A stretch of DNA of 64,000 nucleotides from a virus (taxonomy: Duplodnaviria > Caudoviricetes): positions 3,226 to 67,225 of the IMG/VR virus record IMGVR_UViG_3300031867_000044, one strand, 5' to 3'. Positions 15,054 through 63,129 of this stretch are shown here, piece after piece. The position numbers and the translations under genes were made by a program. The notes under the pieces were generated by a model. That model saw only the letters and a program-made list of their open reading frames with translations. It ran no database searches and was not told the DNA's origin. Position 1 is the first letter of the stretch. Every line of letters starts with the position of its first letter.

Positions 15054-15082
15054 GTCGTGACGCAGCCACGACCTACGTAGAA
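15054..15082 (+). repeat. hairpin repeat family, copy 1
   Basis: GTCGTGA-CGCAG-CCACGAC-CTACGTAGAA. Confidence 0.6.
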
Positions 15083-15098
15083 TTAATTTGATAGAGAG

Positions 15099-15404
15099 AT
15101 GATTACGTTTTATATTACTTCAAGTGTGTGGGAAAATCAAGATGTGGAATTTCTTGATTATTCTATCTTGACAGAGGCTGGTATTGCGAAGATGATTCAT
15201 GATAACCCTAACGGGTTTATTATGATTAAGCCATCCCCATTTTATTGTGCTTTCATAGAAAAGTTCATAGAACCATTTCTTGATAAGAATGGTTTTATAT
15301 GTGAAGGAGTATATAAGACCACTTTAAGCGGTGAAGTAGTTTATTTTAGGCTGATAGAGAATATCAATATGAAATTAGCAAGAGAAAAAAGGATGGAGGG
15401 CTGA
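15099..15404 (+). CDS. hypothetical protein (AT-rich)
   Basis: 101-aa ORF. Confidence 0.65.
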   Translation: MITFYITSSVWENQDVEFLDYSILTEAGIAKMIHDNPNGFIMIKPSPFYCAFIEKFIEPFLDKNGFICEGVYKTTLSGEVVYFRLIENINMKLAREKRMEG

Positions 15405-15408
15405 TAGG

Positions 15409-16089
15409 ATGAAGAAAACCATAAAAGCCAGATGCACGCAGAAAGTGTATGCAGAAGACACCTTGTTGTTCTGTAGTGGAGAAGTATATCAGTTTGAGGT
15501 GACTGAATTTCAAAGTTCTATATTTGATTGGCATGAGCAACCGTTGTATAAGGAGATAGATCAACCGTTAGAACCACGGATGTATCATTATCGCAGATAT
15601 GTAAACAAGCGAGGCCATTTCTCCTTCACATTCTACGATCGTTTCTATGCCGAACAATGCGGCGAACCGTGTTTTAAAGAGTGTTTTAATGAAATAAATA
15701 TGGAACTGACTTCAGAAAATGTTGAACGGATATTCAAAGAATGCCTGTCCGACGAAAGAAAGGGCGACAATGTGCGCCTCGTAGAAGCCGTGCGTGCCAA
15801 TGTAAAGATGGCCATGCGTCGTGACAAATTGAAATTCTATCAGGAGGAAATACAGGGTATGCTCATGCAACTACCTAGAAAATTTCGCGAGACGGACGGT
15901 GGCGGTTGGTCGTTTTTGAACCTTTGCACACGTGAGGACGGGGTGCAGTGGACGGGCAGCCACGCTATGATGGAGCAACTGGTGTGCATCGGTATCGGCT
16001 CTGGCAAGATGAAGTATCTGCTGCCGAAATCAATGTGGAACATTCTGCCTGGCGGTATGCCGTATTTGGCTGTGTTAGAAAATGTGTAA
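15409..16089 (+). CDS. hypothetical protein
   Basis: 226 aa; appears to have two domains. Confidence 0.75.
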   Translation: MKKTIKARCTQKVYAEDTLLFCSGEVYQFEVTEFQSSIFDWHEQPLYKEIDQPLEPRMYHYRRYVNKRGHFSFTFYDRFYAEQCGEPCFKECFNEINMELTSENVERIFKECLSDERKGDNVRLVEAVRANVKMAMRRDKLKFYQEEIQGMLMQLPRKFRETDGGGWSFLNLCTREDGVQWTGSHAMMEQLVCIGIGSGKMKYLLPKSMWNILPGGMPYLAVLENV

Positions 16090-16092
16090 GAT

Positions 16093-16314
16093 ATGATGAT
16101 TTACGTAAGACGTTTTTTGGTGGTGTTGTTTTTCATACCGCGAGTGCTGTTGGCTTTATGCGCCATGATAGTGCTGTTTTATTTCGATTTGGCTGCTTTT
16201 CCCGTTTATTACATTATGACTGGACGGTATTATGTTGACGATTTCAGTCCGCTTGGTATAGAAGTGGCAAAGTGGTTGTGCGGATATGGTTTCAAGTGGA
16301 AGGATAGGGTTTAG
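16093..16314 (+). CDS. small membrane protein
   Basis: Hydrophobic 73-aa ORF. Confidence 0.55.
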   Translation: MMIYVRRFLVVLFFIPRVLLALCAMIVLFYFDLAAFPVYYIMTGRYYVDDFSPLGIEVAKWLCGYGFKWKDRV

Positions 16315-16332
16315 GAGCGATACGGTGCTGAG

Positions 16333-16569
16333 ATGGGTGTGAGAAAGGGTGTTGCTGCGACACAGCCGCAGCCTGCGAGAAAGAAGAAGGAGGTGGTGCT
16401 GGTGTGCTGCCGTGACTGCAAGGAGTGTGTGGCTGTGATGGAGTTCCATACGCTGACGGTGCACGGGAGGGAGCCTACGCTGGGCAGATGCCCTTACTGG
16501 ACCGAGAGCAGGAGCTTTCTGCTGAGCCAGAGGATTGCCTGCGGGCATTTTCAGAGTGAGATGGAATGA
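16333..16569 (+). CDS. Cys-rich hypothetical protein containing hairpin repeat copy 2 (16354-16383)
   Basis: CCRDCKEC...C...C; repeat GCTGCGA-CACAG-CCGCAGC-CTGCGAGAAAG. Confidence 0.65.
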   Translation: MGVRKGVAATQPQPARKKKEVVLVCCRDCKECVAVMEFHTLTVHGREPTLGRCPYWTESRSFLLSQRIACGHFQSEME

Positions 16570-16680
16570 TTTGGGAACGGTTTGGGAAAGAATTGGGAAC
16601 GAATTGGGAACAGTTTGGTGAAAATGGGGAACAGTTTGGTGAAAATGGGGAACGGAACGGTGAAAATGGGGAACGGAATT
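16570..16680 (+). repeat. G-rich tandem repeats (21-bp unit GGGAACAGTTTGGTGAAAATG plus shorter units)
   Basis: Directly visible; GGTGAAAAT at 16617, 16638 and 16659. Confidence 0.85.
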
Positions 16681-17806: not shown

Positions 17807-18283
17807 ATGAGGAAATTAAGTTTAGAGGAATTGTCTATCGGCGCATGGCTGAGGTATTATATGGATATGCCTAACCGTTATAGCGAGCCGATGTATGTGT
17901 TTAGCCTGTATCAGAGCGGGAGCGTTTATCTTGCCACTCGGTCAGACGGCTATGATGCTGTGAGCGCTGAACTTGCCAATGTTGCTCCTATCTCCATTAA
18001 CGAGGCTGTGCTTCGTGGTTTCGGTTTTGAGAAGGCGAAAGGTAATGACGTGTTTCTGAAGGTTATCGGTGACATGCGTATGACGGTGAGCCTGCGTTGG
18101 AAGCACGGCGAGCAACAATGCAAGCGTGTGGCTCTTACCGGCAAGACGACATGTTGGAATGAGGAGATACGCTATGTGCATGAGCTTCAGCGTTGGTGGA
18201 CAGACCGTGTGTTGCTGCCATTCGGCATCCCCCTGGTATTGGAGTGGCGCGGTAAGAGAAAGGAAGACGAGCATGATGGATGA
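17807..18283 (+). CDS. hypothetical protein
   Basis: 158-aa ORF in the operon. Confidence 0.7.
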   Translation: MRKLSLEELSIGAWLRYYMDMPNRYSEPMYVFSLYQSGSVYLATRSDGYDAVSAELANVAPISINEAVLRGFGFEKAKGNDVFLKVIGDMRMTVSLRWKHGEQQCKRVALTGKTTCWNEEIRYVHELQRWWTDRVLLPFGIPLVLEWRGKRKEDEHDG

Positions 18284-20258
18284 GAGCATTAAGAGGCTTA
18301 CGCGAGAGTTGTGGGACTTGATAGTGAGTGACGGTGGCGAGTGTGTCAGGTCTTTGCTTGCCATCAAGAGCCGTGAGGGCCGCAGGGGCAAGACGAAGCG
18401 TCTTATCTGCAAGGCCATTGACGGCAGCAGCCTTGGTGTGTTTGGCGGTAGGATGTATTATTTCGGCGGCAGGGTTTACGTGCCTATTGACCGTTCGACG
18501 TTTCACCGTGTGCTGTATGACATTCTTGCCAACCGCATCAATGTGCCTGACGGTGACTTGGTGAAGTTGTCGGACTTGTATATGGACAGCTGTAACGTGG
18601 TTTACTCGAAGCCATTGCAGGTGAGTAATAACGTGATGGTGTTTCATAACGGTGTGCTGGACGTTGAGCAGGGTGTTTTCTCGAAGACTTTTGACAAGCG
18701 TTTTGTCCAGATGTGGAGCGTGGACTATGACTATACTCCCATGGCGAAGACATTCTTGTGGCATCAGTTCATTAACCAGGTGTTGCCCGACAAGTATTGG
18801 CAGGACGCACTTCAGATGTTTCTCGGAGCTACGTTCATAGACCGCAAGAAGGTGAAGATAGAGCACATCATGATCTTGCTCGGCAAAGGCAGTAACGGCA
18901 AGAGCGTGATACAACAGGCCGTGTGCGGTGTGCTGGGCGAGGAATATGTGTCGCAGCATGAGATTGGCCGTCTGTGCAGCCGTGGCAACGACGGTGACAT
19001 GGCCGTTGCCGAGATAAACGGCAAGCGCCTGAACTATTGCACCGAGATGGAGGAAACGGACTTTTACAAGAAGTCAGCCCGGCTGAAAGCCATCGTAAGC
19101 GGTGAGAACGTGACCGCAAGGCAGTTGTACGGCAATCCTTTCAAGGCTACGAACATCCCCTTGCTGATGGCAAACGCCAACCGGCTGCCCATCTTCAACC
19201 AGAAGGACGACGCGCTGTTGCGCCGTATTTATGTGATACCTTTTAATGTGGTGATAGCCGAGGAGAAGCAGAACCGCACGCTAGGCGACGAGCTGGTGAG
19301 TGAGTACCCTGCCATCCTGAACTGGATATTAGAGGGCCGTGACAAGTTCATCAAGAACGGCTACCGTCTGCCGAACGACATCAAGGTAAGCACGATGATT
19401 AAGAACGAGCGCGTATCGTACAATAGTGCGCTGACGTTCATGAAGAAGCAGAACTACAAGCCTCGTCTGGAGGGAGTGACGCTTGCAGATGACGTTCAGA
19501 TGACGCTCTCCGACCTTTATGCCCGTTATTCTCGCTGGTGCCTTGCAAACGAGATCAGCGTTATGGGTAAGACCGTGTTTTCCACGACGCTTGAGAACAA
19601 CGGTTTCAGACGTGAGCGCAAGAGCTTCGGTGTGATATTCCATGTGTTCTGCGACACCGTAGCAAAGCTGGAACGGCAGCGTAAGAAACAGGAGAAGGAG
19701 AAAGAGGTAGGACTGGTGTGGTATAACGGCAAGGCGTATGCCCAGACCATCAAGCAGCTGATGGCCGTAATAGGCGTGAGCAGGCATGTCATTATCAAGA
19801 TGAAGGGCCAGGGCAAGATGGATAATCTGATTAAAGGCTATAAGAATCACCTATTCTATGACGTGCAGGGATGCTATGATTTCTTTAAGAGCTTGCATGT
19901 CATCGCCAGCGACGATGAGCGCAAGTATCATAAGCGCCTTGACAATGAGCATAAGAAAGCCCGCGACCGTTTTAATGCCCGTATGGCTGGCCGCGGTTGG
20001 CCGTACAGGAAATACGCCACGGGCTTTCAGCAGATAGAGGAAGGGCTGGTTGTTGTCCCCGACGACACCACAGAGCGCGAGGTGATAGAAATGGCACAGC
20101 TGGCAGGTTATGATGTGTCGCATCTATACAGCAGCCTTGTCATTAAGCGAGAAGAAGAGAATATTAACCAATTAAAAGAGATATATGGAACAGAAAAATC
20201 AGACGAAGTGCCCAGTGTGCGGAAAGTTCACGACGGAGGCGAAGAAGAGAGCGTATGA
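18273..20258 (+). CDS. D5/P4-family SF3 helicase (phage primase-helicase)
   Basis: Walker A GKGSNGKS, Walker B LNYCTE, ANRLP and RRIYVIPF; start reassigned to ATG 18273. Confidence 0.88.
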   Translation: MMDESIKRLTRELWDLIVSDGGECVRSLLAIKSREGRRGKTKRLICKAIDGSSLGVFGGRMYYFGGRVYVPIDRSTFHRVLYDILANRINVPDGDLVKLSDLYMDSCNVVYSKPLQVSNNVMVFHNGVLDVEQGVFSKTFDKRFVQMWSVDYDYTPMAKTFLWHQFINQVLPDKYWQDALQMFLGATFIDRKKVKIEHIMILLGKGSNGKSVIQQAVCGVLGEEYVSQHEIGRLCSRGNDGDMAVAEINGKRLNYCTEMEETDFYKKSARLKAIVSGENVTARQLYGNPFKATNIPLLMANANRLPIFNQKDDALLRRIYVIPFNVVIAEEKQNRTLGDELVSEYPAILNWILEGRDKFIKNGYRLPNDIKVSTMIKNERVSYNSALTFMKKQNYKPRLEGVTLADDVQMTLSDLYARYSRWCLANEISVMGKTVFSTTLENNGFRRERKSFGVIFHVFCDTVAKLERQRKKQEKEKEVGLVWYNGKAYAQTIKQLMAVIGVSRHVIIKMKGQGKMDNLIKGYKNHLFYDVQGCYDFFKSLHVIASDDERKYHKRLDNEHKKARDRFNARMAGRGWPYRKYATGFQQIEEGLVVVPDDTTEREVIEMAQLAGYDVSHLYSSLVIKREEENINQLKEIYGTEKSDEVPSVRKVHDGGEEESV

Positions 20259-20522: not shown

Positions 20523-20553
20523 GCCACGGCTGAGCCGTGGCCTGCGGAGAAAG
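20523..20553 (+). repeat. hairpin repeat family, copy 3
   Basis: GCCACGG-CTGAG-CCGTGGC-CTGCGGAGAAAG. Confidence 0.8.
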
Positions 20554-27395: not shown

Positions 27396-27426
27396 GCGGC
27401 GGCACAACCGCCGCCTGCGAGGAAAG
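27396..27426 (+). repeat. hairpin repeat family, copy 6
   Basis: GCGGCGG-CACAA-CCGCCGC-CTGCGAGGAAAG. Confidence 0.8.
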
Positions 27427-38368: not shown

Positions 38369-41300
38369 ATGAGCAGATGGACGATATATAGTAAGTGGAA
38401 GGACCAGGCTGGACGGGCAGTGGCGAAGGAAGTGGTTGTTGATGGGAACACCGACGACGCAGGACGGTACGCGCTGCCCGAGCTGGAATATAACGGCACA
38501 TGGATGGGCGAGACGTTCGTGACGCTGAACATCCGATGCTCCGAGCCTATCAACTTCGAGATTGGTGACTATATCGTCTATCGTGGTGAGAAGTTTGTGA
38601 TGAACTACGACCCGAGCGTGGTGAAGAAGGCCCGCAGAGGTACGTATGGCGAGGGCTTCACGTATGACAACGTGAAGTTCAATGCGCTGAACTACGAGCT
38701 GACGGACGTGAGGATGCTTGACTACGTGATTGGTGACAACGGTGTTCACTATTCGGGTCTGCCCACGTTCCAGTTCTTCTGCTCGACGGTGGATGACCTC
38801 TGCGACCGCCTGCAGGTGAACGCTGACAGGTATTGCGAGGAGAACGGTATCAGCGAGGACGAATGGTGGGTGTTTGTGACACCTAGCGAGACGCGGACGC
38901 AGCAGCGGTGCAAGACTAACGCTATTAAGAGCCGTGCTGCGGCTCTATACAGTACGTACTTTGGTGACAATATGGGCGACACCGCGAGCGAGAAGGTGAA
39001 CCAGAACGTGAGCATCGACAACATGAGCGTGTGGGATGCTTGTAAGTTCATCAAGGAAACGTTCGGGCTTAACTTCATCAGCAGGGAAAGAAGCATCGTG
39101 GTGGGAGCCATCGGTGTGCCGACGGAAAGAGAGTTCAGATACGGGCTGGGCAACGGCTTGTATGAGATAGAGCGTGTGGCCGACGAAGAGCAAGCCGTGA
39201 TTACGAAGCTGTATGCCTACGGCAGCGACAAGAACCTGCCGACACGGTACTATGCCAATATCGGCGTGGAGTGCTACGGATATGTGGCGAAGTGGATGCA
39301 GGGAGAGGTGAAATACCTGCTGCTGGACATTGAGTACAGCGGTAACTACTTCACGCAGAATACCACGGTGAACGGGCAGGACTGCTATGCGGTGAGATTC
39401 ACGCATGGTGGTGTGACGTATGATGCCTACGTGGGAAGCACGGACGTGATAGAGGGCGTGACGCTATCGGGCTTTAGCGTGCTGTTTACTGACGGCGAGT
39501 CCCTTCCATTTGACGGGCAGGAGCAGCTGACCTTCATCGGCGGCGTGAACAAGGACGCATGGCCTACGGACAATACCACGCAGATACACAAGGTGATACC
39601 ACAGAACCTGCCAGACAACATGGCGGTGAGCCACCTGATGCTGCCTGGATTCCCCAGTGAGAGCCTTTACAGCTGGGTGAAATCGCACGGCGCGACCAAC
39701 AGTAACGACTCGACGGGACTGGCCACATGGCGCGGTCACACTGCATACTTCTCGCAGGACAAGGAGCGTCCGTACATCCTGTCGCAGTATCACACGGAGC
39801 TGGGCATCAGAGAGGCCACGAAGATGTTTGACGGCAGCGACGGCACGAACGAGGTATACCCGACGATAGAGAACACGGAGGCAGGCGTGATATACGCAGC
39901 CGAGACCATCAAGGACAACGGTGTGGGCACGGAGATGAAGAACTTCACCATCACCCTGCCCGACTTCGGCAGTGACTTCGACCTGAAAGAGCTGTTGCAG
40001 AGCGACACGGCCATTGAGATGACGGACGGCTACTGCGGCGGCAGGAGCTTCAACGTGAAGAGCGTGAAGAAGGAGGACGGACGGTGGGTGTGCACCTGTG
40101 AGAGGGAGCACGACACTGCGCTGGACTTGTGGTTCCCGTATTCGTACAGCAAGAGCATCGGCGGGCAGGAGCGTGCCGACGAGCCGTATCAGGTGCGCAC
40201 GGGCGACCGCTATGTGCTGACGGGCATTGAGATGACGAGCACGTATGTGGAGGCTGCCGCTACGGTACTGCTGGAGGAGGCTCTGAAATTCCTGGAGGCA
40301 AACGAGTACGTGAGATACACCTACGTGCCGAGGGTGGATGAGATATTCATGGCACGGCAGCACGACGGGGTGAGTAGCGGTGATACCGCTACATACGGGA
40401 CACGGAGCTACCACGACACGCTGAAAGAGGGCGACACGCTGCTCTTTGCCGACGACGACCTGCACATCACGGGCTCGGTGTTTATTGACACGCTGCGCAT
40501 CAAGGAGTATGGCAACGGGCAGATACCGACCTACGAGCTGACGCTGCGCAACGACAAGCAGGTGGGCACGATAGAGCGTCTGCAGGAGCAGGTGAGCAAC
40601 ATCAGCTCGACCATTAACAACGGTGGCGGCGGCGGTGGCGGCGTGAACATTCCGCTGGTGCGCCAGCTGATACAAAGCTACGGCGGCGGCATGTTCCTCT
40701 CGAAGACGAACGATGACACGGCCAATGGCGTGATTACGTTCGTGCGGAGGGTACTGGCACGTATGGGCGTGCAGTTCGGCCGCTATACGGGAACGGCCCT
40801 TGTGGGCACGGGCGGTGTGATAGACGAGAACGGCAACGCCGTGCTGAACAAGGTAGAGATAAGAGAGTCGCTGACAGTGCCTACGCTGGTGTTCAACAGG
40901 GCCGAGGTGATAGCCGGCACCCAGACGCAGACACCGTTCGGCGGCGAGATAGCCGAGGTGGTGAAGCAGGAGAACGGCTACGGCTGGGCACGGCTGCGGC
41001 TGGAGGACGGTGACGTGGGGCGCATCAGAGTGGGTGCGCTGTGCATGGGTTTCTTCCATAACTACGGCAGCGATGCGAGCAGCACGAATGCGACGGCAGA
41101 CAGCGACGACCGCCGAGGCGTGATGACATGGAAGGGATTCTCGACCGTCTATTTCGAGGTGATAGAGATTCCTGCCACGTATAACGACGAGAGCAATGCT
41201 GACAATGCGTGGTTCAGATACCAGCTGCGTGACACTGAGAGCGGCGGCAACGGTGTGCATCCGTTTGTGCACATGTCGTTTGCTGGCCGCGGCTATGTGC

Positions 41301-44300
41301 GGCAGACGGGCGAGGCTTACGACAGCATCAAGCAGTATCAGGCATTCACCATCAGGACACCGTTCTACACGGCACGGCTGGTGGATGTTGGCGGCTGGGA
41401 GTGGGACATCGCTAACTATACCTATGTGAACGGTCTGCTTGACGGCTTCGGCGAGCTGGTGAACGACCAGACGCTGACTGGCTTCGGCACGATTGACATG
41501 TCGATATGGCTGAAAGGCCACATCATACAGGTGGATGACGTGCCCGACTACATCAGCATCCAGCAGAGCGCACTTGGCTTGCTTGGCGAGAACGAGACGG
41601 AGACGGTATGGGTGAGGGTGTATGACGGCTACCGGCAGAACCACACTGATGCTTATACCTTCACGTTGAAGAAGAACGGCACGGCGATACAAAAGACGAT
41701 AACGGTGGCGAACGGCGAGGCATGGTTTACGCTCTCATCGAGCGAGCTTGGTACGGAGGTGACGACGTTCACCGTGACGGCGACGCTAAAGAGCGACGTG
41801 ACAAAGACGCTGGAAGAGGACTTCACTGCGAAGAAGATATTCGACCCGACGGTGACCGTTCCCGACCGCCACGAGATAGAGCTGAGCGACACGGTGTTCC
41901 ATGTAGACAAGGACGGCACTGTGACCCCGAGTGACATTCACGTCAGAGTGAGGAATATACATGGTGACGGAACGACGAGCTATATGACTGATGATGACGT
42001 TGATGCTCAGATACTCTATGTATGGCCTGACAGCACGATGCAAAGTGGCTATGCCTTTGCATTGGCCAACGGTATTCCAAGTGGGCAAGGCTATGCGTCG
42101 TTGGTTGATGATGTGATGGAACCCGAGGGGTATGTTGTAAAAGACATCAAGGCTATTAAGGCTTATCTTTGCAGCGGCGCGATTGAGGAGTGGGATGATA
42201 CAGCAGACTGGCAGGACCTTAAGGGGTTCATGGACATCAACGAAGTGCCGCTTGACATCTGGGACATCAAGACTATTCCCGTGGTGACTGACGGTGAGGA
42301 CGGCAAGACGACGCTGATTGCCGACTTTGATGACGAGATGGTGAGCGTGCCTACGGATTCTACGGGTAAGGCGCAGGTAGACACTAGCTGGAATTGGCAA
42401 ACAACGGCGCACCTTTACTATGGTACAGAACAGCTAACGCTCAGTAGCACACGATGTCGGATTGTTGAAGCAACAAACAATTTGTGGTATAACGAATATC
42501 TTACTATCTCATCAGACGGGAAGACGGCCACTTTGCAGGTCAACGGATTCGACGACATGCAGCAGGGTTCAACGGTACAACCGAATACGAACAACTGTAA
42601 GATTACCATTGAGCTTGTTTCTGCGGACGGGAAGAGCAGCGGCACAGCCACTGCCTACGTAAACAAAATACCTGCTGGCGAGGGCGGTGACGGTAAGAAC
42701 GCGGTTATATACTCGCTATGGACGAGCACAAGCACTATTAAAAAAGACGGTAGTACATTCACGCCTGCTGGGGTGCAAGTAAAGATAGCCAAGACCGACG
42801 GTGACGAGACTACCTATCATGCGTACAACACATGGGGCTATGCAAGCAGCAGCCCACGTCTCTATATCAGATACAAATATAACGCTATGGTGGCAAACGT
42901 TAACGACGGCAACACCATGAGCAGTGATACCATTTCGCCAGCTAATGATACGGAATACATTCACATTGCCCTTTGCACGCCCGATGGGAATAACGGCGCA
43001 GGCTATATCGTGGATGCAGAGACCATTCCCATTGTCCGAGACGGTGCGAAAGGTGACAAAGGTGACAAAGGCGAACAAGGAGAACCTGGTGACAAGGGAG
43101 ATAAAGGTGATAAAGGCGACAAGGGTGATAAGGGTGACAAAGGCGATAAAGGCGACAAAGGCGACGACGGTAAGGACGGCAAGGATGCGGCCTCGTATGA
43201 GTATGTGCGTTTCTCGGACAATGCTACGCTGGTGGATGGTGTTTGGACGGGAACGTTCACGGCGGCAGACGCTACGCAGATGACGAACAAAGAAACGGCG
43301 CAAGGGGACACGAAGAACTTGATACCGTATTCGGAGTTTGAGATGTTGAACTCTGAGAGCAACGTGCCTGTTGGGTGGGTGCGAAACAACGACTCATCTC
43401 TTGTTATCAGCAAGATAGTTGACGAGGACGGTGTGGCATGGGCGCACTATGAGATTGCCAACGGGACTAGCGGCGTTGTCGGCCTGTCACAAAATCCGTA
43501 TGACACAGAAAACAAGGCGGCAGAAGGATACTTTGTGCCTATCTCCCGTAATCAGACATACACCTTCACCGTGCGCTATAAAGGCTCAGGGTATGTTTAT
43601 CTTGGAGCGCAGTATTACAAATACAATAGCGGTAGCAGCCCGTCGTGGACGTTCCTAGAAGAAGATGGCCAAAACAATAATCAAAAATGGTCGTCATTCC
43701 TTGCGGAATACGCCGACGGCAAAGAGCATCAACTGACAACGACCTTTCAATGCGCCCTTTCTGGCGTTACGCATGCAAGACTCTTTTTGGCACGTTTCAG
43801 CGGCAACACTGTTGGAGGTGAATACAACTTTGCTCAGCCGATGGTGCTTAAAGGAGACCAAAGCAGTGCATTGCCATCATATCTGCCAGCACCGTCGGAG
43901 GACTTGCTGGGAACGACAAATGGACTATGGAAGGGTGTTATGCGATGGAGCCATCCGTATGCAAGCAGTGACTTTTCGCAGTATGAGTGGAATAAGGTAA
44001 GGGATGCAGAGCCGAGAATGAATACGTGGAACTCGGAGAGCTACGTAGTTCCTTTAGGCGCGCCAACTGACTTGCAGTATTTCTATTGTGGTGCTTACGG
44101 AGAGCCGTATTACGATATTGTGTATGATGGCGCACACTACTGGATATGCAAGCAAACCTACCAGCGTAATATCGAGTTTGAAGACGAAACGACGCAAGAG
44201 GTACGATATGTAGTGCCTGAAAATACGGATTTATGGTCGATATACTGGGAAATGGCAAGCCAGTTTAACTTCCTTATGGCAAAGACATTATATGCCATCA

Positions 44301-45032: not shown

Positions 45033-45314
45033 ATGACAGAGCAAGAAAAACGAGAAATAGTACAAGCGGTGTTGGACGCTATTAGCTCTAAGGCACAGGA
45101 CTTAGAGAACGTGACAACACTCACGACGCTGGACGGTGTTACGTCGTTGCCCGTGCTGACCAACGGCCGCGTTGTTGCCGTCGTAGCCTTGTCTGCGCTG
45201 ACAAGAAACGTAGATGCTGCCGTTGCGTCGCTCGACACAGCCATAGACGGAACGAGAGGGCAACGGCACAGCCGATGCCTGCTGAGAAAAAGGGACGAGA
45301 TAAGGACGAGATAA
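45033..45314 (+). CDS. tail-fibre N-terminal module, apparently truncated
   Basis: MTEQEKREIVQAVLDAI...LDGVTSLP; the last codons derive from hairpin repeat copy 8 (45260-45291). Confidence 0.5.
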   Translation: MTEQEKREIVQAVLDAISSKAQDLENVTTLTTLDGVTSLPVLTNGRVVAVVALSALTRNVDAAVASLDTAIDGTRGQRHSRCLLRKRDEIRTR

Positions 45315-50339: not shown

Positions 50340-50990
50340 ATGGACGGTATCACAACAACGACGGCAGGGAAAGGCGCAGTGGTGTGGGCAGTGATTGTGA
50401 ACGAGATAACAGCCGTGCTGTTCGACTTACGGTGGATGATCGTAGCCTGCGCTTTCCTCATCTACATGGACTACCATTTTGGTTGTGCGGAAAGCAGGAA
50501 GCGGCACAAAGAGGCTCTGGAGAATGGGAATCTCATATTAGCCAAGCTGTATGAGTTCCGATGGTCAAGGGCTGTCAGACGGTCGCTCAACAAGAGTGTC
50601 GATTATTTAACCTTGTTGCTGGCTGGCACGCTACTGGGATTGTCTGTCTGCGAGCCGTGGGGCATCTGTTCGCACGTGATAACGGCTGCGGCTGCGGTGC
50701 TTTTGGCGTGTGCGGTAGAGATAGTTTCGGCGGTCGGCCATTTCTTCTATCTTCGGGGTATTAAAGTCCCGAAGGTGAAAGTGACATGGAAGAGCTTTTT
50801 CGTGTTTCTAGGACGGTTTGCAGCTGGGTTCGCACGGACAAAAGACGAGGACTTGGGCAATGCGCTGGACGAGACGATAGAGCAGACACTGAGAGACGAT
50901 GGAAAGGATAAGGAGCGGCACAACCGCTCCATGCAAGAAAATGACAGGACGCAAGACAAGGACAGCAACGACAAGGAGGAGCAAGGATGA
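50340..50990 (+). CDS. holin (family 4-like)
   Basis: DLRWMI...D..FG...SRAVRRSLNKSVDY; the C-terminal extension contains hairpin repeat copy 9 (50912-50941). Confidence 0.75.
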   Translation: MDGITTTTAGKGAVVWAVIVNEITAVLFDLRWMIVACAFLIYMDYHFGCAESRKRHKEALENGNLILAKLYEFRWSRAVRRSLNKSVDYLTLLLAGTLLGLSVCEPWGICSHVITAAAAVLLACAVEIVSAVGHFFYLRGIKVPKVKVTWKSFFVFLGRFAAGFARTKDEDLGNALDETIEQTLRDDGKDKERHNRSMQENDRTQDKDSNDKEEQG

Positions 50991-51801: not shown

Positions 51802-52433
51802 GGAAATGGATTGAGACGTGGTGGCCGTTGGTGCTCTGCATCGCGTTTTGGGCGGTGGTGGCCTTTCTGCTCTACTCTTTTCGGACTGGCTTGCAGAAGG
51901 AGAATGAGCAACTGAGACAGGAGCTTGCTCTAGCACAACAGTACGTGCCGCTGAAACGTGACACCATACATGATACTGTAGAGGTGGTGACGCAGAAGGT
52001 GGTAGAGGTGGAGAAGATTAAGGAGGTGCTGACACCTGATGACCGACTGCTGCTGAAAGAGCTTGGCATGAAGGTGAAGGAACTGGAGAGCCTGCAGAAG
52101 ACATCCGTTGTGACTAGGGACACCGTGGTTCTTGCAGCGGCACAACCGCTGCCTGCTGAGAAAGACGGACAGGCGGACAAAAACGGCGGACAGACGGACA
52201 ACAAAGACAGCGTGCTGACGTATAAGGATGCTTGGACGGACTTTACATATTATGTGGAGACGGGGAAGCTGGCATACGCGGTGAAAGACTCGCTGGCCAT
52301 CGCTGTGAAGCAGGAATATAAGCACAGGTTTCTGTGGTGGAAGTGGGGGACGAAAGGCTACGAGGTGAAGGTGGCGAACTTCAACCCTCATGCAAGCGTG
52401 AGGTATAACACCTTCGTGAAGCGACGACGATGA
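51798..52433 (+). CDS. spanin-like protein (DUF6549-like)
   Basis: N-terminal TM, coiled coil and beta-rich C-terminus; contains hairpin repeat copy 10 (52134-52164). Confidence 0.65.
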   Translation: MRKWIETWWPLVLCIAFWAVVAFLLYSFRTGLQKENEQLRQELALAQQYVPLKRDTIHDTVEVVTQKVVEVEKIKEVLTPDDRLLLKELGMKVKELESLQKTSVVTRDTVVLAAAQPLPAEKDGQADKNGGQTDNKDSVLTYKDAWTDFTYYVETGKLAYAVKDSLAIAVKQEYKHRFLWWKWGTKGYEVKVANFNPHASVRYNTFVKRRR

Positions 52434-52443
52434 ATGGATGTTG

Positions 52444-52471
52444 GTTGTGGTACAACCACATACAGGACTGA
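52444..52471 (+). repeat. hairpin repeat family, copy 11
   Basis: GTTGTGG-TACAA-CCACATA-CAGGACTGA, similar to copy 5. Confidence 0.6.
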
Positions 52472-52622
52472 CGAAGATTGACGCTAACAGGCTGTTGGGA
52501 AACAGCGGCATACGATAATGGATTTTTTGTTTTCATGTTTTTAGTTTTAGGATGTGTTAGTTAGTATTAGTGTGTTTTTTCATAGTTTGATTATTAAGGT
52601 TTGATTGTAAGCGTACAAGATA

Positions 52623-57564: not shown

Positions 57565-57565
57565 A

Positions 57566-57979: not shown

Positions 57980-57991
57980 AACTTATGATTT

Positions 57992-58351: not shown

Positions 58352-58510
58352 AATTTATTCTACTTTATTCAAACTTCTGTCCTGTCAGTAATTCCCAACA
58401 GGTTTTAAAACCTTCTTGGTAAGCATCCATAATAATATGTGTCATATCAGTTACTTTCGGAGTAATTTTATTGTACCCCTCTTGCATTTTCTCTCTTACT
58501 TCTTCTTGTG

Positions 58511-58942: not shown

Positions 58943-59130
58943 TTAATTATATCTTCTTGTGGTATCCATTCCTCAAAATATACCTTATAGTTCCTTACAA
59001 TAGATATGAGGAATTTGTTATCAGAGTAGATAGCCTCAAATATATACCCCATATCCGTCATAACTATGAGTCTATATGGGGAATCTGGTTTAATGGTCGT
59101 TGAGTACCATTTCTTTCGCTTTAGTTTCAT
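58927..59130 (-). CDS. hypothetical protein
   Basis: 67-aa ORF in the operon. Confidence 0.55.
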   Translation of the reverse strand: MKLKRKKWYSTTIKPDSPYRLIVMTDMGYIFEAIYSDNKFLISIVRNYKVYFEEWIPQEDIIKWMKV

Positions 59131-59132
59131 AA

Positions 59133-59525
59133 TTAAATAAATTTTTCAAGTGTATATTTTAATGCTGCTTCAACAGCTTCTTCGTAAGAATCAACATATA
59201 TATTACTTATATAATAGTTTCCATTATTATCAGGTGTATGATTATATATTTCGTATCTAAAAACTTCTCCTGTACAAGCTTCAATTATTCGTATAAAAAT
59301 TCTTTTTTCTTCTCTCAACCAAGCCATAGCCATTTGGTGAGTAGGCGCTGGATAAGCGTCTTTATGCGGTTTTGCTCCATATAAGGTATTTATAGTTTTA
59401 CCATTCGGCGAATATTCTTTATGTATTTCAGTATTACTGCCAAAAGAACCATCACCATATACATCAAAACCCTTTTCTTTGAGAAGCTTACTAACTTCAA
59501 AAGAACAATATGCTTCTTTAATCAT
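59133..59525 (-). CDS. hypothetical protein
   Basis: YCSFEVSKLLKEKGF... Confidence 0.75.
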   Translation of the reverse strand: MIKEAYCSFEVSKLLKEKGFDVYGDGSFGSNTEIHKEYSPNGKTINTLYGAKPHKDAYPAPTHQMAMAWLREEKRIFIRIIEACTGEVFRYEIYNHTPDNNGNYYISNIYVDSYEEAVEAALKYTLEKFI

Positions 59526-59528
59526 AAT

Positions 59529-59822
59529 TCATTCTCCTTTCATATAAGTTTTGAAATCTTCTGCTAATTTTACGAAGTTAATATCGTCTTCTCCAAATTC
59601 GAAAGTTAGATACCAATCACTACCACCTTTACGAAGCCAATCGCAAGCCTTCTCAATAAAGGCATCATAACGAGTATACTCAACATCTGTCTCCCAAAAC
59701 TTATGTTCATTGAATACAACAAGTTCGCTATATTCGCATAGCTCTTTATAGTCTTCCTTTTCAAATCTCTCTTCGGACATTTCATCGAAACTGAGGTAGA
59801 TTTTATCGGGTAGATTCTTCAT
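59529..59822 (-). CDS. hypothetical protein
   Basis: PDKIYL...FIEKACDWL. Confidence 0.65.
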   Translation of the reverse strand: MKNLPDKIYLSFDEMSEERFEKEDYKELCEYSELVVFNEHKFWETDVEYTRYDAFIEKACDWLRKGGSDWYLTFEFGEDDINFVKLAEDFKTYMKGE

Positions 59823-59826
59823 AACT

Positions 59827-60672
59827 TTATCCTCCTATTCTTTGTTTGAGAGATTTGAGCCAATCAATACAATCTCTTACCTCGGTAATATCTGCATAAT
59901 ATTTTTTGGCTTCATTCAAATACTCGCATATTTTTTGTACCTTAAACATATCCTCTTCACTCCAAACACAAGCAGGTTTATCATACATTGCTTCCTTTGC
60001 TTCTGCTGAAATCATACGCTTTGGCTTTTTCTCTGAAAACACAACGGGCTTAGTAGGATATGGAGAACCATTTTCTTTTATAGCATAACCACTAATTATT
60101 TCACAACTATTTGCCTTAACGTAGTCAATATGATTTGGTTCATCTTCTATTCCATACCATATTATCCCCATGTTTTCTTTTATCTCAAGAACATTATACT
60201 CTCTGCCTGCATATTTAATCTTAAACTTTGGTTCAACCTTATCAGCAGGCTTCTGTTCGCTGTCTTCTATTGGCTCAAAACATTCATAACAGAGGTTCAT
60301 CAGGTTACAAAGAAAGTTATCTACAGGTTTGTATATGTTCCCTCTCCTAAACGTAGAGTATCTTGGTGAAGCAATACACTTATATTTTTTGCCAAGCTGA
60401 ATTTTATCAATAGGTTTATGATTACCTTGCTTTTCAAGCCAAACAAGTACATCCCGATTAGTTACACCATTTCTAAGTTCTGTATCTTCTGGCATATCGC
60501 CAAGATAGAAGATTAATTCCTTCTTTATTCTCTCATCCTCTGACTCTGCGAGTTCGGGGAAAAGGTCATATACAACACAGCAAAAGCGTTCATCCTCACA
60601 TTCAGGGTCAGATGCTGCTTTTTTCAGTACTTCCATTACGTTCTTGTATTTTTCTTTGTATTCCATAATCAC
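59827..60672 (-). CDS. mosaic hypothetical protein
   Basis: Modules FPELAESEDERIKKELI, EQKPADKVEPKF and WSEED. Confidence 0.75.
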   Translation of the reverse strand: MIMEYKEKYKNVMEVLKKAASDPECEDERFCCVVYDLFPELAESEDERIKKELIFYLGDMPEDTELRNGVTNRDVLVWLEKQGNHKPIDKIQLGKKYKCIASPRYSTFRRGNIYKPVDNFLCNLMNLCYECFEPIEDSEQKPADKVEPKFKIKYAGREYNVLEIKENMGIIWYGIEDEPNHIDYVKANSCEIISGYAIKENGSPYPTKPVVFSEKKPKRMISAEAKEAMYDKPACVWSEEDMFKVQKICEYLNEAKKYYADITEVRDCIDWLKSLKQRIGG

Positions 60673-60719
60673 AACATTTTAAGTCCGTGTAGTCTATAAT
60701 TATTTTATTTTAAGATAAA

Positions 60720-61004
60720 TTACTCGCACCCGTACTTGTCGCACCAGGCTTGTTTGTCGTCGCAATATCGACGGTTATCGGCAACCCACTTTTGGTCGGT
60801 GATTTTCACTACGTCGTACCACGGCGCATTTGGTTCGACTTCAATCTCCACGTCGCCGTACTTGGTGATGAGTTGTTGTTTGACTTCTTCTAGCATCTTC
60901 TCATTGCGGATAACTTTCTGCGCGTCTGATGCGTCGTAGTGCATGCAGAAGTGGTCTGCGCCTTGCTTCAATGCCATGCTGAATGTTAGTTCTGATAGTT
61001 TCAT
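60720..61004 (-). CDS. hypothetical protein, duplicate of 63192..63476
   Basis: MKLSELTFSMALKQGAD...WCDKYGCE. Confidence 0.75.
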   Translation of the reverse strand: MKLSELTFSMALKQGADHFCMHYDASDAQKVIRNEKMLEEVKQQLITKYGDVEIEVEPNAPWYDVVKITDQKWVADNRRYCDDKQAWCDKYGCE

Positions 61005-61115
61005 GATTTACGCGTAATTAAGTTTTTTAATTCTTCCAGTTCACTCTCGGTCAGCCATACATCTGCATCCTTGATGTAGAGGTGGTACAGCCCAGCGTCA
61101 CGAATGAGGCGAATA

Positions 61116-61547
61116 TCAGGTTTTATCATTGCGCCTCCTTTCGTTTTCGTAGTTCATCAGTATGGCAATAACACTTGCGGCACGCTCGTATGTGCTTGCG
61201 CCTTCTATCTCATTCCAATGTTGTGACAGGTGGTCGGCGAGTTTCTTCATACCGCCTAACTTGGCGATGGAAACGTTCTCTATATCGCCAGCCTTATAGA
61301 GCTTGAAGATATATTGTAGGTATTCTGCGGAAGTCCACGAGTTGGGTTGCAGTGCGCTGTGGTTCTTTGTTACCACGAACACACCTTCCTGCCACGAATG
61401 AGCTTCAAAAATCATTTGCACAGGCTCATATCGCTTTCCAACCCTGCGATAGAGTGCGTTGTCGTACTTCGGACGCTCAGGCTCTTTCCATTCCTGGTAT
61501 CTGCCATTTGGCAGACGCTCATAAAGTTTTGGTCTGTCTTGTTTCAT
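61116..61547 (-). CDS. hypothetical protein
   Basis: 143-aa ORF in the operon. Confidence 0.65.
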   Translation of the reverse strand: MKQDRPKLYERLPNGRYQEWKEPERPKYDNALYRRVGKRYEPVQMIFEAHSWQEGVFVVTKNHSALQPNSWTSAEYLQYIFKLYKAGDIENVSIAKLGGMKKLADHLSQHWNEIEGASTYERAASVIAILMNYENERRRNDKT

Positions 61548-61552
61548 CTTAT

Positions 61553-61849
61553 TTAAAAATTTATTGTTAAAGACTTATCTCTTTCCTTTTTCCGTTGTTG
61601 CGGATAGTGTTCTTTCTTATAAGGACAGTCGGCTTTCTGCGTTGCATCGTAAGTTCGTAGGCTTACCGGTTCATTCCCGTAACCCATCCATTGTGTCCCA
61701 ATCTCATCGAATATTCGGCAGCGAGAACGTGTATATTCCGATGAGTTGTCTGATTTGGGGCGCGATGATTTAATGCACTTGTCACAGTTTCGCTCCATCC
61801 ACCATGCGGCTTCAGAACCGCAGGAGAAGCAGGGGCGTGTCGTTTTCAT
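61553..61849 (-). CDS. Cys-rich hypothetical protein
   Basis: WMERNCDKC...C...C. Confidence 0.65.
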   Translation of the reverse strand: MKTTRPCFSCGSEAAWWMERNCDKCIKSSRPKSDNSSEYTRSRCRIFDEIGTQWMGYGNEPVSLRTYDATQKADCPYKKEHYPQQRKKERDKSLTINF

Positions 61850-62100
61850 TTCGTCTCCTTCCTTTCTAGCATTTTGTCTATGAAGTCACGGATGTGCAGG
61901 ATTGGGAACTTGTAGCCGTTGATGGCGCATAGGTCAATCTCGTGCTCTATCATGCGGAAGGCTTCGGTCATGCCCTCCTTGTATGCTTTACCCTCGGAGA
62001 TAACCTTGTCAAAGATGTCATAAGTGTGGCCGTACTTAGCTATTCTCTCCTCATACCTTTTCCGCCTAAAGGCTTTCATCTTTTGATTTATCGTTTTCAT
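61846..62100 (-). CDS. hypothetical protein
   Basis: Start reassigned to MKTINQK. Confidence 0.55.
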   Translation of the reverse strand: MKTINQKMKAFRRKRYEERIAKYGHTYDIFDKVISEGKAYKEGMTEAFRMIEHEIDLCAINGYKFPILHIRDFIDKMLERKETK

Positions 62101-62293
62101 ACTGTCCGAATGGTTTATCGTAGTGTAATAGTTCGTATGTTTCTTCTTTGGGTATGCCGCGCTCCCGATAGTCGAGGTCGGCAATCATGCGGATGCGTGC
62201 ACGGGCGTTGAGCCTATGCCGCATCTTGCATTCAAACCAGAGCTGGCGCATAAGGTCAGCCCTGCGACGTGTGTAATGGTCGATGTTGGTCAT
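62066..62293 (-). CDS. basic hypothetical protein
   Basis: 75-aa ORF. Confidence 0.55.
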   Translation of the reverse strand: MTNIDHYTRRRADLMRQLWFECKMRHRLNARARIRMIADLDYRERGIPKEETYELLHYDKPFGQYENDKSKDESL

Positions 62294-62406
62294 TGTTGTT
62301 TCTTTGTTTTTAATGAATAATTTTCAGTGCGATGGTATCGCACCATACAGGACGGTTAGAGGTCGTGCTCCACTTGCTCGATGGCCTCCTGCTTCTTGTA
62401 GGGTTG

Positions 62407-63075
62407 TTATAGGTCGAACAATGATGTCTGCTTGATGACGTGACCGTCTTTGGTGACGATTTCGCCCTTGCACTCACGATTGAAACGCTCGCAACCTTTG
62501 TCGAAGTATTCCTTGTCGAGTTCGCAGCCCACGTAGTCGAAGCCCATCTTGTAGGCTGCGATACGGCTTGACTGACTGCCCATCATGGGGTCAAAGATGC
62601 GGTCGCCCGGCTTGGCGTAGTTCTTCAGCAGCCATGCGTACAGGGCGACAGGCTTTTGAGTGGGATGGATGCGGATTTCTTCAGCGTTCTGTTTCATTGG
62701 CGAATAGCGGAATATCTTGGCGGTCTTATCGTCGAAGTTCGACAATGCCAATTCGCACATCGCAAACGATAGGGCTTCAGGTTGATTCTTGTCCCATACT
62801 ACCCACGCTTTCGAGCAGACGGGGATGCGGTCGATGTAATGGTTTGCACCCCATAGGATGAAGTGGTCGCATACACGTTGTAACTCGTCGAACCATTCCT
62901 TATCGGGTGCCGACGTGTCCCATTCTTTGTATTCGCGTCCCTTTTCCTTCACAAGTCTGCCCGATGAATTGATGTCTATCCCATACGGCGGGTCGGCAAT
63001 CGCCAACTGAAACGCCTTGTCGGGCAATGTCCTCATGTATTCGAGGCAGTCAGTGTTGAATACTTCGCTTGTCAT
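62407..63075 (-). CDS. orphan N6A/N4C DNA methyltransferase (beta class)
   Basis: ADPPY, HPTQKP, and motif I variant DPMMGSQS. Confidence 0.9.
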   Translation of the reverse strand: MTSEVFNTDCLEYMRTLPDKAFQLAIADPPYGIDINSSGRLVKEKGREYKEWDTSAPDKEWFDELQRVCDHFILWGANHYIDRIPVCSKAWVVWDKNQPEALSFAMCELALSNFDDKTAKIFRYSPMKQNAEEIRIHPTQKPVALYAWLLKNYAKPGDRIFDPMMGSQSSRIAAYKMGFDYVGCELDKEYFDKGCERFNRECKGEIVTKDGHVIKQTSLFDL

Positions 63076-63100
63076 ATAATTCGTTTAATTCGTTTTACAG

Positions 63101-63129
63101 GCCGCGGCATAACCACGGCATACGGGGAA
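63101..63129 (+). repeat. hairpin repeat family, copy 12
   Basis: GCCGCGG-CATAA-CCACGGC-ATACGGGGAA, antisense to local transcription. Confidence 0.65.

What the first reader, a model, noticed from the sequence alone, without database searches (positions are those of the whole stretch)
15054..63129. Strand-specific family of about 12 dispersed hairpin repeats, inside and between genes
The consensus is a 7-bp stem ending GG, a 5-nt loop (mostly YACAR), a stem starting CC, and a tail CTGC(G/T)GAGAAAG or (C/A)TACG. Copies are at 15054, 16354, 20523, 22022, 26881, 27396, 42636, 45260, 50912, 52134, 52444 and 63101, with a degenerate one at about 62330. Stem sequences vary with compensatory changes. 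All copies are on the plus strand, even in the minus-transcribed region, and none was seen left of 15 kb. Copies inside genes are read in all three frames (AATQPQPAR, SSGTATAY, GQRHSRCLL, ERHNRSMQ, AAQPLPAEK). Conservation is therefore at the level of DNA structure, not RNA termination or protein. It resembles a REP/MITE-like element or an ssDNA signal (priming, packaging, recombination) with no cognate RAYT/TnpA in the window.
Basis: partly seen in the sequence, partly recalled or inferred. Interest (0 to 1): 0.8.

Follow-up and report, generated by a model that had tools for sequence, protein, structure and literature searches.

The report
One-strand REP-like hairpin repeats in phage
The repeated hairpins are real copies of a roughly 31-base palindromic repeat shared by rumen Prevotella-type bacteria and many unrelated phages of theirs; every copy lies on one DNA strand of a phage, and the likely spreading enzyme is a host single-strand-DNA transposase whose own gene carries the same hairpins.

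Summary
Observation confirmed and extended. The window holds 14 copies, and a 15th lies in the same 67-kb phage genome outside the window. All are on the + strand. Consensus: (G)GCNGCGG-CRGAR-CCGCNGC-NTRCGGAGAAR, with a second tail type ATAC(A/G)GGAC.

The repeats are not private to this phage. Related phages have empty sites. Copies sit just after stop codons, or in frame inside genes as extra loop residues.

The family also occurs in unrelated rumen phages, at 11-24 copies each. In five whole records, 85 of 85 copies lie on one strand per genome, always the G-rich strand, even inside genes that run the other way. A few copies occur in Prevotellaceae chromosomes.

No gene is common to the phages that carry the repeat. 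Three host genomes encode a Y1-HUH (RAYT-like) plus DprA-like fusion protein. Its own gene carries an inverted pair of exactly these hairpins in its variable insert, as described for TnpA_REP subclass 2.4.

Best reading (about 0.6): a REP-type non-autonomous element spread by a host single-strand-DNA enzyme, with orientation set per replicon rather than per gene.

This scan reached the same conclusion before on other rumen Prevotella phages. I found no paper that describes it.

The parts
15054..15084 (+). Hairpin copy with tail CTACGTAGAA; intergenic, 3 nt after the stop of the RusA-like gene 14649-15050
   Evidence: (37.3 bits)
16354..16384 (+). Hairpin copy with tail CTGCGAGAAAG, followed by a purine-rich stretch; probably intergenic, 40 nt after the stop at 16314
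   Evidence: (38.9 bits)
20523..20553 (+). Hairpin copy with tail CTGCGGAGAAAG; intergenic, 8 nt after the stop codon of an upstream + strand ORF (20185-20514; primase-helicase gene 18126-20258 lies further upstream)
   Evidence: 40.8 bits
22022..22052 (+). Hairpin copy with tail CTGCGGAGAAAG; 7 nt after the stop of 21211-22014
   Evidence: 43.6 bits
26881..26911 (+). Type II copy (TGTGG-TACAG-CCACA plus ATACGGGAC); intergenic; relatives L004 and L006 are empty at this site
27396..27426 (+). Hairpin copy 7 nt after a stop codon and upstream of the major capsid gene; about 36 nt that five relatives lack
   Evidence: (45.6 bits)
40374..40404 (+). Copy inside the 2213-aa tail-fibre gene (tail ATACGGGAC); the local loop is 5 aa longer than in the G001 homologue
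   Evidence: (31.7 bits)
42636..42666 (+). Copy inside the tail-fibre gene, read as SSGTATAY
   Evidence: (40.0 bits)
45260..45290 (+). Copy downstream of the fibre gene, in a doubtful 93-aa ORF; purine-rich tandem tail
   Evidence: (40.3 bits)
50912..50942 (+). Copy at the 3' end of gene 50340-50990; homologues end where the hairpin starts, so the copy and its tail form a C-terminal extension
   Evidence: (39.6 bits)
52134..52164 (+). Copy in frame in gene 51798-52433; hairpin plus purine-rich tail add 17-20 aa (AAQPLPAEKDGQADKNGGQ) that 10 homologues lack
   Evidence: (44.1 bits)
52444..52474 (+). Type II copy (tail ATACAGGAC), 10 nt after the stop of 51798-52433
62330..62360 (+). Degenerate type II copy between minus-strand genes, antisense to them
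63101..63131 (+). Copy between minus-strand genes (next to the DNA methylase gene 62407-63075), antisense to them; duplicated with its flanks at G000:403-435
   Evidence: (38.7 bits)

Best explanation
The hairpins are copies of a REP-type, non-autonomous palindromic element about 31 nt long: a 7-bp stem, a 5-nt loop C-R-N-A-R, and a conserved single-stranded foot. On the opposite strand the element reads 5'-TTCTCC-G(T/C)A(G/T/A)-hairpin, which is the layout of GTAG-tagged REPs. The element belongs to a narrow lineage of rumen Prevotellaceae and to whatever phages replicate in them. Inferred mechanism: a host-encoded Y1-HUH (RAYT-like) plus DprA-like fusion protein recognises the folded hairpin and its foot on single-stranded DNA and copies or moves it. 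The gene for this protein itself carries an inverted pair of these hairpins. A phage genome exposes one particular strand as single-stranded DNA while it replicates, so all copies in a replicon end up in one orientation, on the G-rich strand, whichever way the local genes run. Copies survive where they do least harm: right after stop codons, or in frame in flexible protein loops. Their 3' foot tends to expand into purine-rich micro-repeats. Shown here: the family, its strand polarity, the empty sites, the in-frame insertions, its presence in unrelated phages and in hosts, the embedding in the host HUH gene, and the HUH and DprA folds. Inferred: that this enzyme moves the element, that single-stranded DNA is the substrate, and that replication sets the polarity.
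For: Family and polarity: 15 of 15 copies are on + in this genome. In five other rumen phage records 85 of 85 copies are on one strand per genome.

Per replicon, not per gene: G309 has verified minus-strand genes (TerL, methylase, exonuclease, O-like initiator). They still hold 8 of its 24 + strand copies, two of them inside TerL and the initiator gene. GC skew is genome-wide on the element's strand while AT skew follows the genes. 56 of 56 viral copies and 14 of 14 window copies sit on the locally G-rich strand. The element-free relative G001 has a skew of 0.01.

Mobility:
- Empty sites in relatives, upstream of the capsid gene and at 26881.
- A copy in L237 with no counterpart in the window.
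- 17-20 extra residues in gp51798 compared with 10 homologues.
- A C-terminal extension of gp50340.
- 1.29 Mb of loci from related phages have copies only in the two or three closest relatives.
- A 74-nt composite element occurs at non-orthologous loci of G308 and G309 at 90% identity.
- Orthologous hairpins differ far more than their flanks yet stay paired.

Shared with the host and with unrelated phages: at least 15 and at least 12 copies in two Prevotellaceae MAGs. Four of these lie in an unrelated PolA-type prophage. 34 IMG/VR loci carry copies. No protein family is shared by more than 3 of 7 carrier phages.

Enzyme: P0001 (L096:3868-5049, minus strand) has the motifs MPDHLH and WENYLRDNP, invariant among 10 homologues. 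Its model matches IS608 and ISDra2 TnpA and TnpA_REP 4ER8 in the N-terminal half, and DprA in the C-terminal half. Its roughly 65-aa disordered insert is bracketed by an inverted pair of the hairpins (37.6 and 37.5 bits). Orthologues in G007 (79% identity) and G231 (60%) carry the same pair. This matches TnpA_REP subclass 2.4, described as having REPs inserted in the tnpA_REP gene (PMC6006769). No homologue occurs in any carrier phage.

Folding strand: non-Watson-Crick stem pairs are A.C 31 times and G.T 7 times on the tail strand, so they are G.T wobbles on the GTAG-tag strand.
Against: No transposition event or enzyme activity is shown; the link to the enzyme rests on association alone. Host chromosomes hold only about 10-30 copies, far fewer than classical REPs, while phages hold about one per 2.5-4.5 kb. 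A host-driven selfish element does not obviously predict that. P0001 falls well below the curated RAYT cut-off (20 bits against 80). A bona fide RAYT in G006 is flanked by a different REP family. No target-site duplication or exact insertion boundary could be defined. The tag is G(T/C)A(G/T/A), and canonical GTAG is only a minority. The excess of A.C over G.T could reflect mutation bias or repair rather than which strand folds. Which strand is the lagging-strand template in these phages is unknown. In this window 12 of 15 copies are co-oriented with genes, so selection by transcription is not excluded as a contributor.
Confidence: 0.6

Rival explanations
1. Sense-strand RNA element. The hairpin and its GGAGAA tail would act in the mRNA as a 3' stabiliser, a processing site, a U-tract-less terminator or a ribosome-binding aid between cistrons, recruited repeatedly because a host factor reads it.
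For: At least six of the 14 window copies start 3-13 nt after a stop codon. 12 of 15 copies are co-oriented with genes. The tail contains GGAG and sometimes merges into Shine-Dalgarno-like runs just before a start codon. REPs are reported to lie mostly downstream of ORFs (PMC3733652).
Against: In G309, 8 of 24 copies are antisense to verified genes, including two inside coding sequence. In G310 half the genes run the other way, yet no copy is flipped. Copies 62330, 63101 and G000:403 are antisense to their neighbours. In-frame copies sit in mid-gene. There is no U tract. The distance from the tail to the next start is irregular. Stem mismatches are A.C rather than G.U on the sense strand. Close relatives lack the element at the same junctions. 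Rfam has nothing.
Confidence: 0.12
2. Single-strand DNA signal used by the phage, for example a hairpin that recruits the host primase or primosome on one template strand, or a polar signal for packaging or recombination. The phage would have acquired it because it helps replication in this host.
For: Absolute strand polarity per replicon, tied to a genome-wide GC skew. Density of one copy per 2-4 kb. Conserved loop and foot, as expected for a protein recognition site. Enrichment in phages over host chromosomes.
Against: Spacing is random and clustered (CV 0.8-1.0, with tandem copies), not regular. Carrier phages have unrelated replication modules and no shared gene. Close relatives do without the element. 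Copies are tolerated inside genes at a cost. The same hairpins are embedded in a host transposase-like gene, which a priming signal does not explain.
Confidence: 0.12
3. No dedicated enzyme. The hairpins would spread and be homogenised by replication slippage, template switching and gene conversion between copies in strongly skewed, repeat-prone phage genomes. The conserved foot would be only the shared microhomology.
For: Orthologous hairpins are replaced wholesale while their flanks stay 95-100% identical. Partial copies (loop, right arm and tail) occur in tandem. The foot expands into micro-repeats, and C-poor microsatellites occupy the same intergenic spots.
Against: This does not explain the same 31-nt consensus, with its conserved loop, in unrelated phages and in host chromosomes. 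It does not explain insertion at new sites without flanking homology. It does not explain the specific embedding in orthologous HUH genes of three hosts.
Confidence: 0.1
4. Anti-defence decoy. The copies would be solitary CRISPR-repeat mimics or another bait for a host nuclease, transcribed from the phage.
For: The architecture (short 5' part, hairpin, 8-12-nt tail) resembles class 1 CRISPR repeats. Distribution follows host lineage rather than phage lineage.
Against: No array with this repeat was found in two whole host MAGs or in the pattern scan of 301 family genomes. The stems vary between copies. Antisense copies exist.
Confidence: 0.03

Closest known systems
GTAG-tagged REPs and their RAYT (TnpA_REP) enzymes, in particular subclass 2.4 (Di Nocera 2013, PMC3733652; Quentin 2018, PMC6006769; Messing 2012, PMC3479197)
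   Same: A 20-40-nt GC-rich imperfect palindrome with an unpaired tetranucleotide foot. Mostly just downstream of ORFs, some copies inside genes in frame. G.T pairs on the tagged strand. An associated Y1-HUH protein whose variable insert between the HUH and Y motifs carries the REPs, which is the hallmark of subclass 2.4. That subclass is reported in Bacteroidetes.
   Different: All copies in a replicon are on one strand. There are no BIME or REPIN inverted dimers outside the enzyme gene. The element is dense in phage genomes but sparse (about 10-30 copies) in host chromosomes. The conserved foot is about 10 nt, not 4, and canonical GTAG is a minority. The enzyme carries a DprA-like C-terminal domain and scores below the curated RAYT threshold. 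Papers on GTAG REPs did not report them in Bacteroidetes or in phages.
IS200/IS605 elements (IS608, ISDra2) and their miniature derivatives
   Same: Hairpin plus flanking bases are read on single-stranded DNA by a Y1-HUH enzyme. [quoted passage not shown] The N-terminal half of the P0001 model superposes on IS608 and ISDra2 TnpA.
   Different: One hairpin instead of distinct left and right ends. No tnpA or tnpB inside the element. Only 31 nt long.
Rickettsia palindromic elements (RPEs) and other in-frame coding repeats
   Same: Palindromic repeats inserted in frame into working genes, where they add hydrophilic loops.
   Different: RPEs are 100-150 bp, chromosomal, and not strand-locked.
PeSL cassettes (promoter-early stem-loops) of T4-type phages
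   Same: Repeated stem-loops at gene junctions of phage genomes.
   Different: PeSLs include a promoter, follow transcription, and are private to one phage lineage. This comparison rests on my recollection and was not tested here.

Membership tests
REP (GTAG-tagged superfamily) | 20-40-nt imperfect palindrome that folds as a stem-loop, with covarying stems | tested here: met
   7-bp stem and 5-nt loop; 280 of 294 stem cells are Watson-Crick in 42 copies; logo of 96 copies
REP (GTAG-tagged superfamily) | Unpaired GT[AG]G tetranucleotide at the foot of the hairpin | tested here: inconclusive
   The foot on the opposite strand is G(97%)-T/C(64/33%)-A(95%)-G/A/T(42/29/24%). Canonical GTAG is a minority, and about 6 further conserved bases (TTCTCC) follow.
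REP (GTAG-tagged superfamily) | High copy number in the host chromosome (usually more than 100) | tested here: not met
   At least 15 and at least 12 model hits, and 9 and 6 strict-pattern hits, in two MAGs. Only a few of 301 family genomes have true copies.
REP (GTAG-tagged superfamily) | Physical association with a RAYT gene (REPtron, or REPs inside tnpA_REP for subclass 2.4) | tested here: met
   An inverted pair lies inside the HUH-DprA gene in G006, G007 and G231. The classical RAYT of G006 has other REPs.
REP (GTAG-tagged superfamily) | Arrangement as inverted dimers (BIME/REPIN) | tested here: not met
   All phage copies are in one orientation. Inverted pairs were seen only inside the enzyme gene.
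RAYT / TnpA_REP (for the host protein P0001) | HUH motif and catalytic tyrosine motif (W..Y...NP) | tested here: met
   MPDHLH and WENYLRDNP, invariant in the alignment of 10 homologues
RAYT / TnpA_REP (for the host protein P0001) | Y1-HUH fold | tested here: met
   Model pLDDT 78. Foldseek hits to ISDra2 and IS608 TnpA (TM on target 0.55-0.66) and to 4ER8 (E 1.4e-3). The C-terminal half matches DprA 4LJK.
RAYT / TnpA_REP (for the host protein P0001) | Score above the curated family threshold | tested here: not met
   NF047646 gives 20 bits for P0001 and 27 bits for the G231 orthologue, against a cut-off of 80. Pfam gives nothing for P0001. The paralogue L216 passes Pfam Y1_Tnp at 24.2 against 23.
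RAYT / TnpA_REP (for the host protein P0001) | Binds and cleaves its cognate REP as single-stranded DNA | not testable with these tools
   Needs biochemistry
IS200/IS605-derived miniature elements | Distinct left-end and right-end hairpins bounding the element | tested here: not met
   A single hairpin; flanks are not conserved beyond -1 to +29
Intrinsic terminator | GC-rich hairpin followed by a U tract, oriented with transcription | tested here: not met
   The tail is purine-rich with no T run on either strand. Antisense copies exist.
Solitary CRISPR repeat (RNA anti-CRISPR) | A host CRISPR array with the same repeat | tested here: not met
   No array-like clusters in G006 or G007, or in the pattern scan of 301 genomes

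The most novel reading that the evidence does not exclude
The polarity and the roughly 50-fold excess in phages are not a passive by-product. On this reading, the host HUH-DprA enzyme loads REP copies onto the single-stranded replication intermediates of invading phages, as a form of attack or marking. Alternatively, phages keep the copies because a host factor reads them as a polar signal on one strand. Either way, this would be a REP/RAYT system whose main arena is phage DNA. It would also give a natural read-out of which strand RAYTs act on during replication.
Probability: 0.15. Interest if true: 0.85.

Novelty: new variant of a known kind. Interest (0 to 1): 0.62.

Why it matters
How REPs spread, and what RAYTs do in the cell, are long-standing open questions. 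Here one REP-like family shows four things together: a strict one-strand rule per replicon, fresh gain and loss between near-identical phages, in-frame insertion into working genes, and a candidate enzyme with a DprA-like single-strand-DNA-binding domain. That makes the idea of replication-coupled, single-strand REP mobility directly testable in small genomes. It also gives a host-lineage marker for uncultured rumen phages. Annotators should take note too, because these hairpins are easily mistaken for terminators, promoters or phage-specific regulatory sites.

Tried and rejected
- Phage RNA-polymerase hairpin promoters (N4-like): no such polymerase. The two giant ORFs are a tape measure and a collagen-like fibre, and copies are absent from relatives.
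- lambda-N boxB or put-type antitermination sites: too many copies, and some are antisense.
- Rfam: no family.
- Megablast against GenBank phages: no match.
- An exact class-1 pattern in IMG/VR: none. A host-derived consensus was needed.
- The classical RAYT of G006 as cognate enzyme: rejected, because it is flanked by a different REP family.
- A shared phage-encoded enzyme: none found by all-against-all BLASTP of 7 carrier genomes, and no homologue of the host enzyme in them.
- The HNH endonuclease 53304-54242 as mobiliser: it was not among the few window proteins that matched other carrier contigs.
- Regular spacing, as expected for priming sites: rejected.
- A simple longest-ORF gene call gave the wrong strand in these purine-skewed genomes. 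It was replaced by a codon-usage score and checked with PHROGs.
- Target-site duplications: none recognisable. Only a C-poor, G-rich 10 nt lies 5' of the hairpin.

Full report
**What the window is.** The window is bases 3226-67225 of a single 67,225-bp viral record. CheckV estimates it as 98% complete. It is a temperate siphovirus-like phage. Its recognisable genes are:
- integrase, 4677-5870
- a second tyrosine recombinase, 6848-7699
- an S24 repressor-like gene, 3215-4009
- RusA, 14649-15050
- primase-helicase, 18126-20258
- portal and TerL on the minus strand, 22664-25928
- major capsid protein, 27461-28648
- an 1811-aa tape measure and a 2213-aa collagen-like fibre
- an HNH endonuclease, 53304-54242
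- a DNA methylase, 62407-63075

GenBank phages hold nothing close. The relatives are rumen and gut IMG/VR contigs.

All listed hairpins exist, and one more lies at 40374.
- A covariance model of 11 copies scores them at 31.7-45.6 bits.
- It finds nothing comparable on the minus strand or elsewhere in the window.
- A plain hairpin scan gives 14 per strand against 3.3 in shuffles.
- The whole genome adds a 15th + strand copy at G000:403-435, outside the window. It is part of a duplication with the 63101 copy.
- There are two tail types: CT(G/A)C(G/T)GAGAA(A/G), and ATAC(A/G)GGAC on shorter stems (26881, 52444, 62330; 40374 carries the same tail on a full 7-bp stem). Both recur in other phages.

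**The copies are insertions, not conserved signals.**
- *Capsid gene site.* Upstream of the capsid gene, the window and two close relatives (L001/L237 and L238) carry a copy right after the preceding stop codon. Five other relatives have about 11 unrelated bases there, and one has a different hairpin.
- *Other polymorphic sites.* At 26881, two relatives are empty. L237 has a copy with no counterpart in the window.
- *Gene 51798-52433.* The hairpin and its purine-rich tail add 17-20 residues that ten homologues lack.
- *Gene 50340-50990.* Homologues end where the hairpin begins.
- *Fibre gene.* The loop at 40374 is 5 residues longer than in G001.
- *Relatives.* Whole related genomes G001-G003 and 1.29 Mb of related loci have no copies except the closest relatives.

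**The family is shared with hosts and with unrelated phages.** A degenerate pattern scan of species genomes gave mostly chance single hits in GC-rich taxa. It also hit two rumen Prevotellaceae MAGs, RUG003 and RUG280.
- *Host copies.* The model finds at least 15 and at least 12 copies there. A strict pattern finds 9 and 6, against 0 for its reversed control.
- *Host consensus.* These copies sharpen the consensus to (G)GC-N5, a loop Y-R-N-A-R, N5-GC, then (C/A)T(A/G)CGGAGAA.
- *An unrelated prophage.* Four of the G006 copies lie in a prophage with PolA, a phrog_256 primase-helicase, a Gp2.5-like SSB and an exonuclease. It shares no protein with this window. One of the four is in frame inside the primase-helicase gene.
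- *IMG/VR.* A host-derived pattern finds 34 loci in about 25 rumen viral contigs.
- *Other family genomes.* In 301 genomes of the host's family, true copies occur in only a handful.

**Polarity is per replicon.** Whole-record scans of five other carriers give 17, 24, 11, 12 and 21 copies, each set entirely on one strand.
- I called genes with a codon-usage score and confirmed by PHROGs that G309 has real minus-strand genes: TerL, a methylase, an exonuclease and an O-like initiator. Eight of its 24 + strand copies lie in or between those genes, antisense to them.
- In G310 about half the genes run each way, yet all 11 copies are on one strand.
- In these genomes GC skew has one sign along almost the whole length, whatever the gene direction, while AT skew follows the genes.
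- Every one of 56 strictly defined viral copies and all 14 window copies lie on the locally G-rich strand.
- Carriers have whole-genome skews of 0.10-0.20 in absolute value. The element-free relative G001 has 0.01.
- Spacing is random (CV 0.8-1.0).

**Dynamics.** G308 and G309 are 82-95% identical. Comparing them shows three things:
- Orthologous hairpins differ at up to 10 of 23 positions while the flanks are nearly identical, and both versions still pair.
- At some sites one genome has a hairpin and the other a C-poor microsatellite.
- A 74-nt composite (a type I copy plus a type II copy) occurs at non-orthologous loci at 90% identity.

The logo of 96 unique copies shows that conservation ends at -1 and +29, with a C-depleted 10 nt upstream and no target duplication.

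**Which strand folds.** On the strand that carries the tail, non-Watson-Crick stem pairs are A.C 11 times and G.T once in 42 copies. In an independent sample picked without regard to stem content they are 20 against 6. On the opposite strand these are G.T wobbles. That opposite strand reads 5'-TTCTCC-G(T/C)A(G/T/A)-hairpin, the layout of GTAG-tagged REPs (PMC3733652). This is suggestive only, because mutation bias or repair could also produce it.

**The candidate enzyme.** No protein family is shared by more than 3 of 7 carrier phages. In both host MAGs, an inverted pair of the hairpins (about 37.5 bits each) brackets a low-complexity stretch inside a 393-aa ORF.
- *Motifs.* It has MPDHLH (the HUH motif) and WENYLRDNP (the tyrosine motif), both invariant among ten homologues.
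- *Paralogue.* It is 35% identical (E 1e-62) to a 326-aa paralogue that passes Pfam Y1_Tnp and lacks the roughly 65-aa insert.
- *Model.* The predicted structure (pLDDT 78, with the insert disordered) matches IS608 and ISDra2 TnpA and TnpA_REP (4ER8) in the N-terminal half, and DprA in the C-terminal half.
- *Orthologues.* Those in G007 (79% identity) and G231 (60%) carry the same hairpin pair at the same place. More distant paralogues carry progressively weaker matches there. G231 is one of the few other genomes with dispersed copies.
- *Literature.* Quentin et al. describe exactly this for TnpA_REP subclass 2.4, found in Cyanobacteria and Bacteroidetes: a variable insert between the HUH and Y motifs, caused by REPs inserted in the gene (PMC6006769).
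- *Other points.* The classical RAYT of G006 is flanked by a different REP family. No carrier phage encodes a homologue of the fusion protein. The window's copies share the CACAR loop of the pair embedded in G006 and G007, which hints at that host lineage.

**Reading.** The element works like, and is best filed beside, REPs with a subclass-2.4-type RAYT. It fails two classical REP criteria: high chromosomal copy number and inverted dimers. It adds strict replicon-wide polarity and a preference for phage DNA. The enzyme link, the single-strand substrate and the replication origin of the polarity are inferences. RNA-level roles may exist for individual copies but cannot explain the family.

**Prior work in this scan.** Earlier follow-ups on other rumen Prevotella phages reached the same general conclusion. 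I reached mine from this window's own data, and I treat those notes as leads only. I found no publication describing the family.

Noticed in passing
G000:340-500 and window 63070-63200: A duplication of more than 100 nt covers the hairpin copy and the 3' ends of two paralogous minus-strand genes. It lies on either side of the arbitrary ends of the record.
   Followed up: partly
L217:850-1210 and 1770-2030 (G006:C68): A bona fide RAYT (NF047646, 98 bits) is flanked by clusters of a different, AT-loop REP family (GCCGAATTTGCAATTCGGC type). The same host genome therefore holds at least two REP systems.
   Followed up: partly
G308/G309 (L322-L327), e.g. G308:24530-24565 and G309:24560-24600: C-poor microsatellites (GATAACG-type, GGGAATTAT-type) occupy the same intergenic hot spots as the hairpins and alternate with them between near-identical phages. 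Similar GGGCATTGT-type repeats adjoin host copies.
   Followed up: no
window 14000-56000 versus 56000-62000: GC skew is +0.1 to +0.29 over the structural and replication part. It flips to about -0.2 in an AT-rich (34-38% GC) block of small minus-strand genes that has no hairpin copies. This looks like a separately acquired early region.
   Followed up: no
L005:330-370: A related phage has an unrelated hairpin (CCCTGCGC-TTAT-GCACAGGG) at exactly the capsid-upstream spot where this phage has its copy. That junction is a general hot spot for hairpin insertion.
   Followed up: no
L131:4675-4960 (G007:C64): In one host, the insert of the HUH-DprA gene has expanded into about nine tandem 33-nt units derived from the hairpin's right arm and tail. 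They are read in frame as a Q/A/G-rich linker.
   Followed up: partly
window 6848-7699: A second, short (283-aa) tyrosine recombinase lies on the minus strand, 1 kb from the integrase.
   Followed up: no
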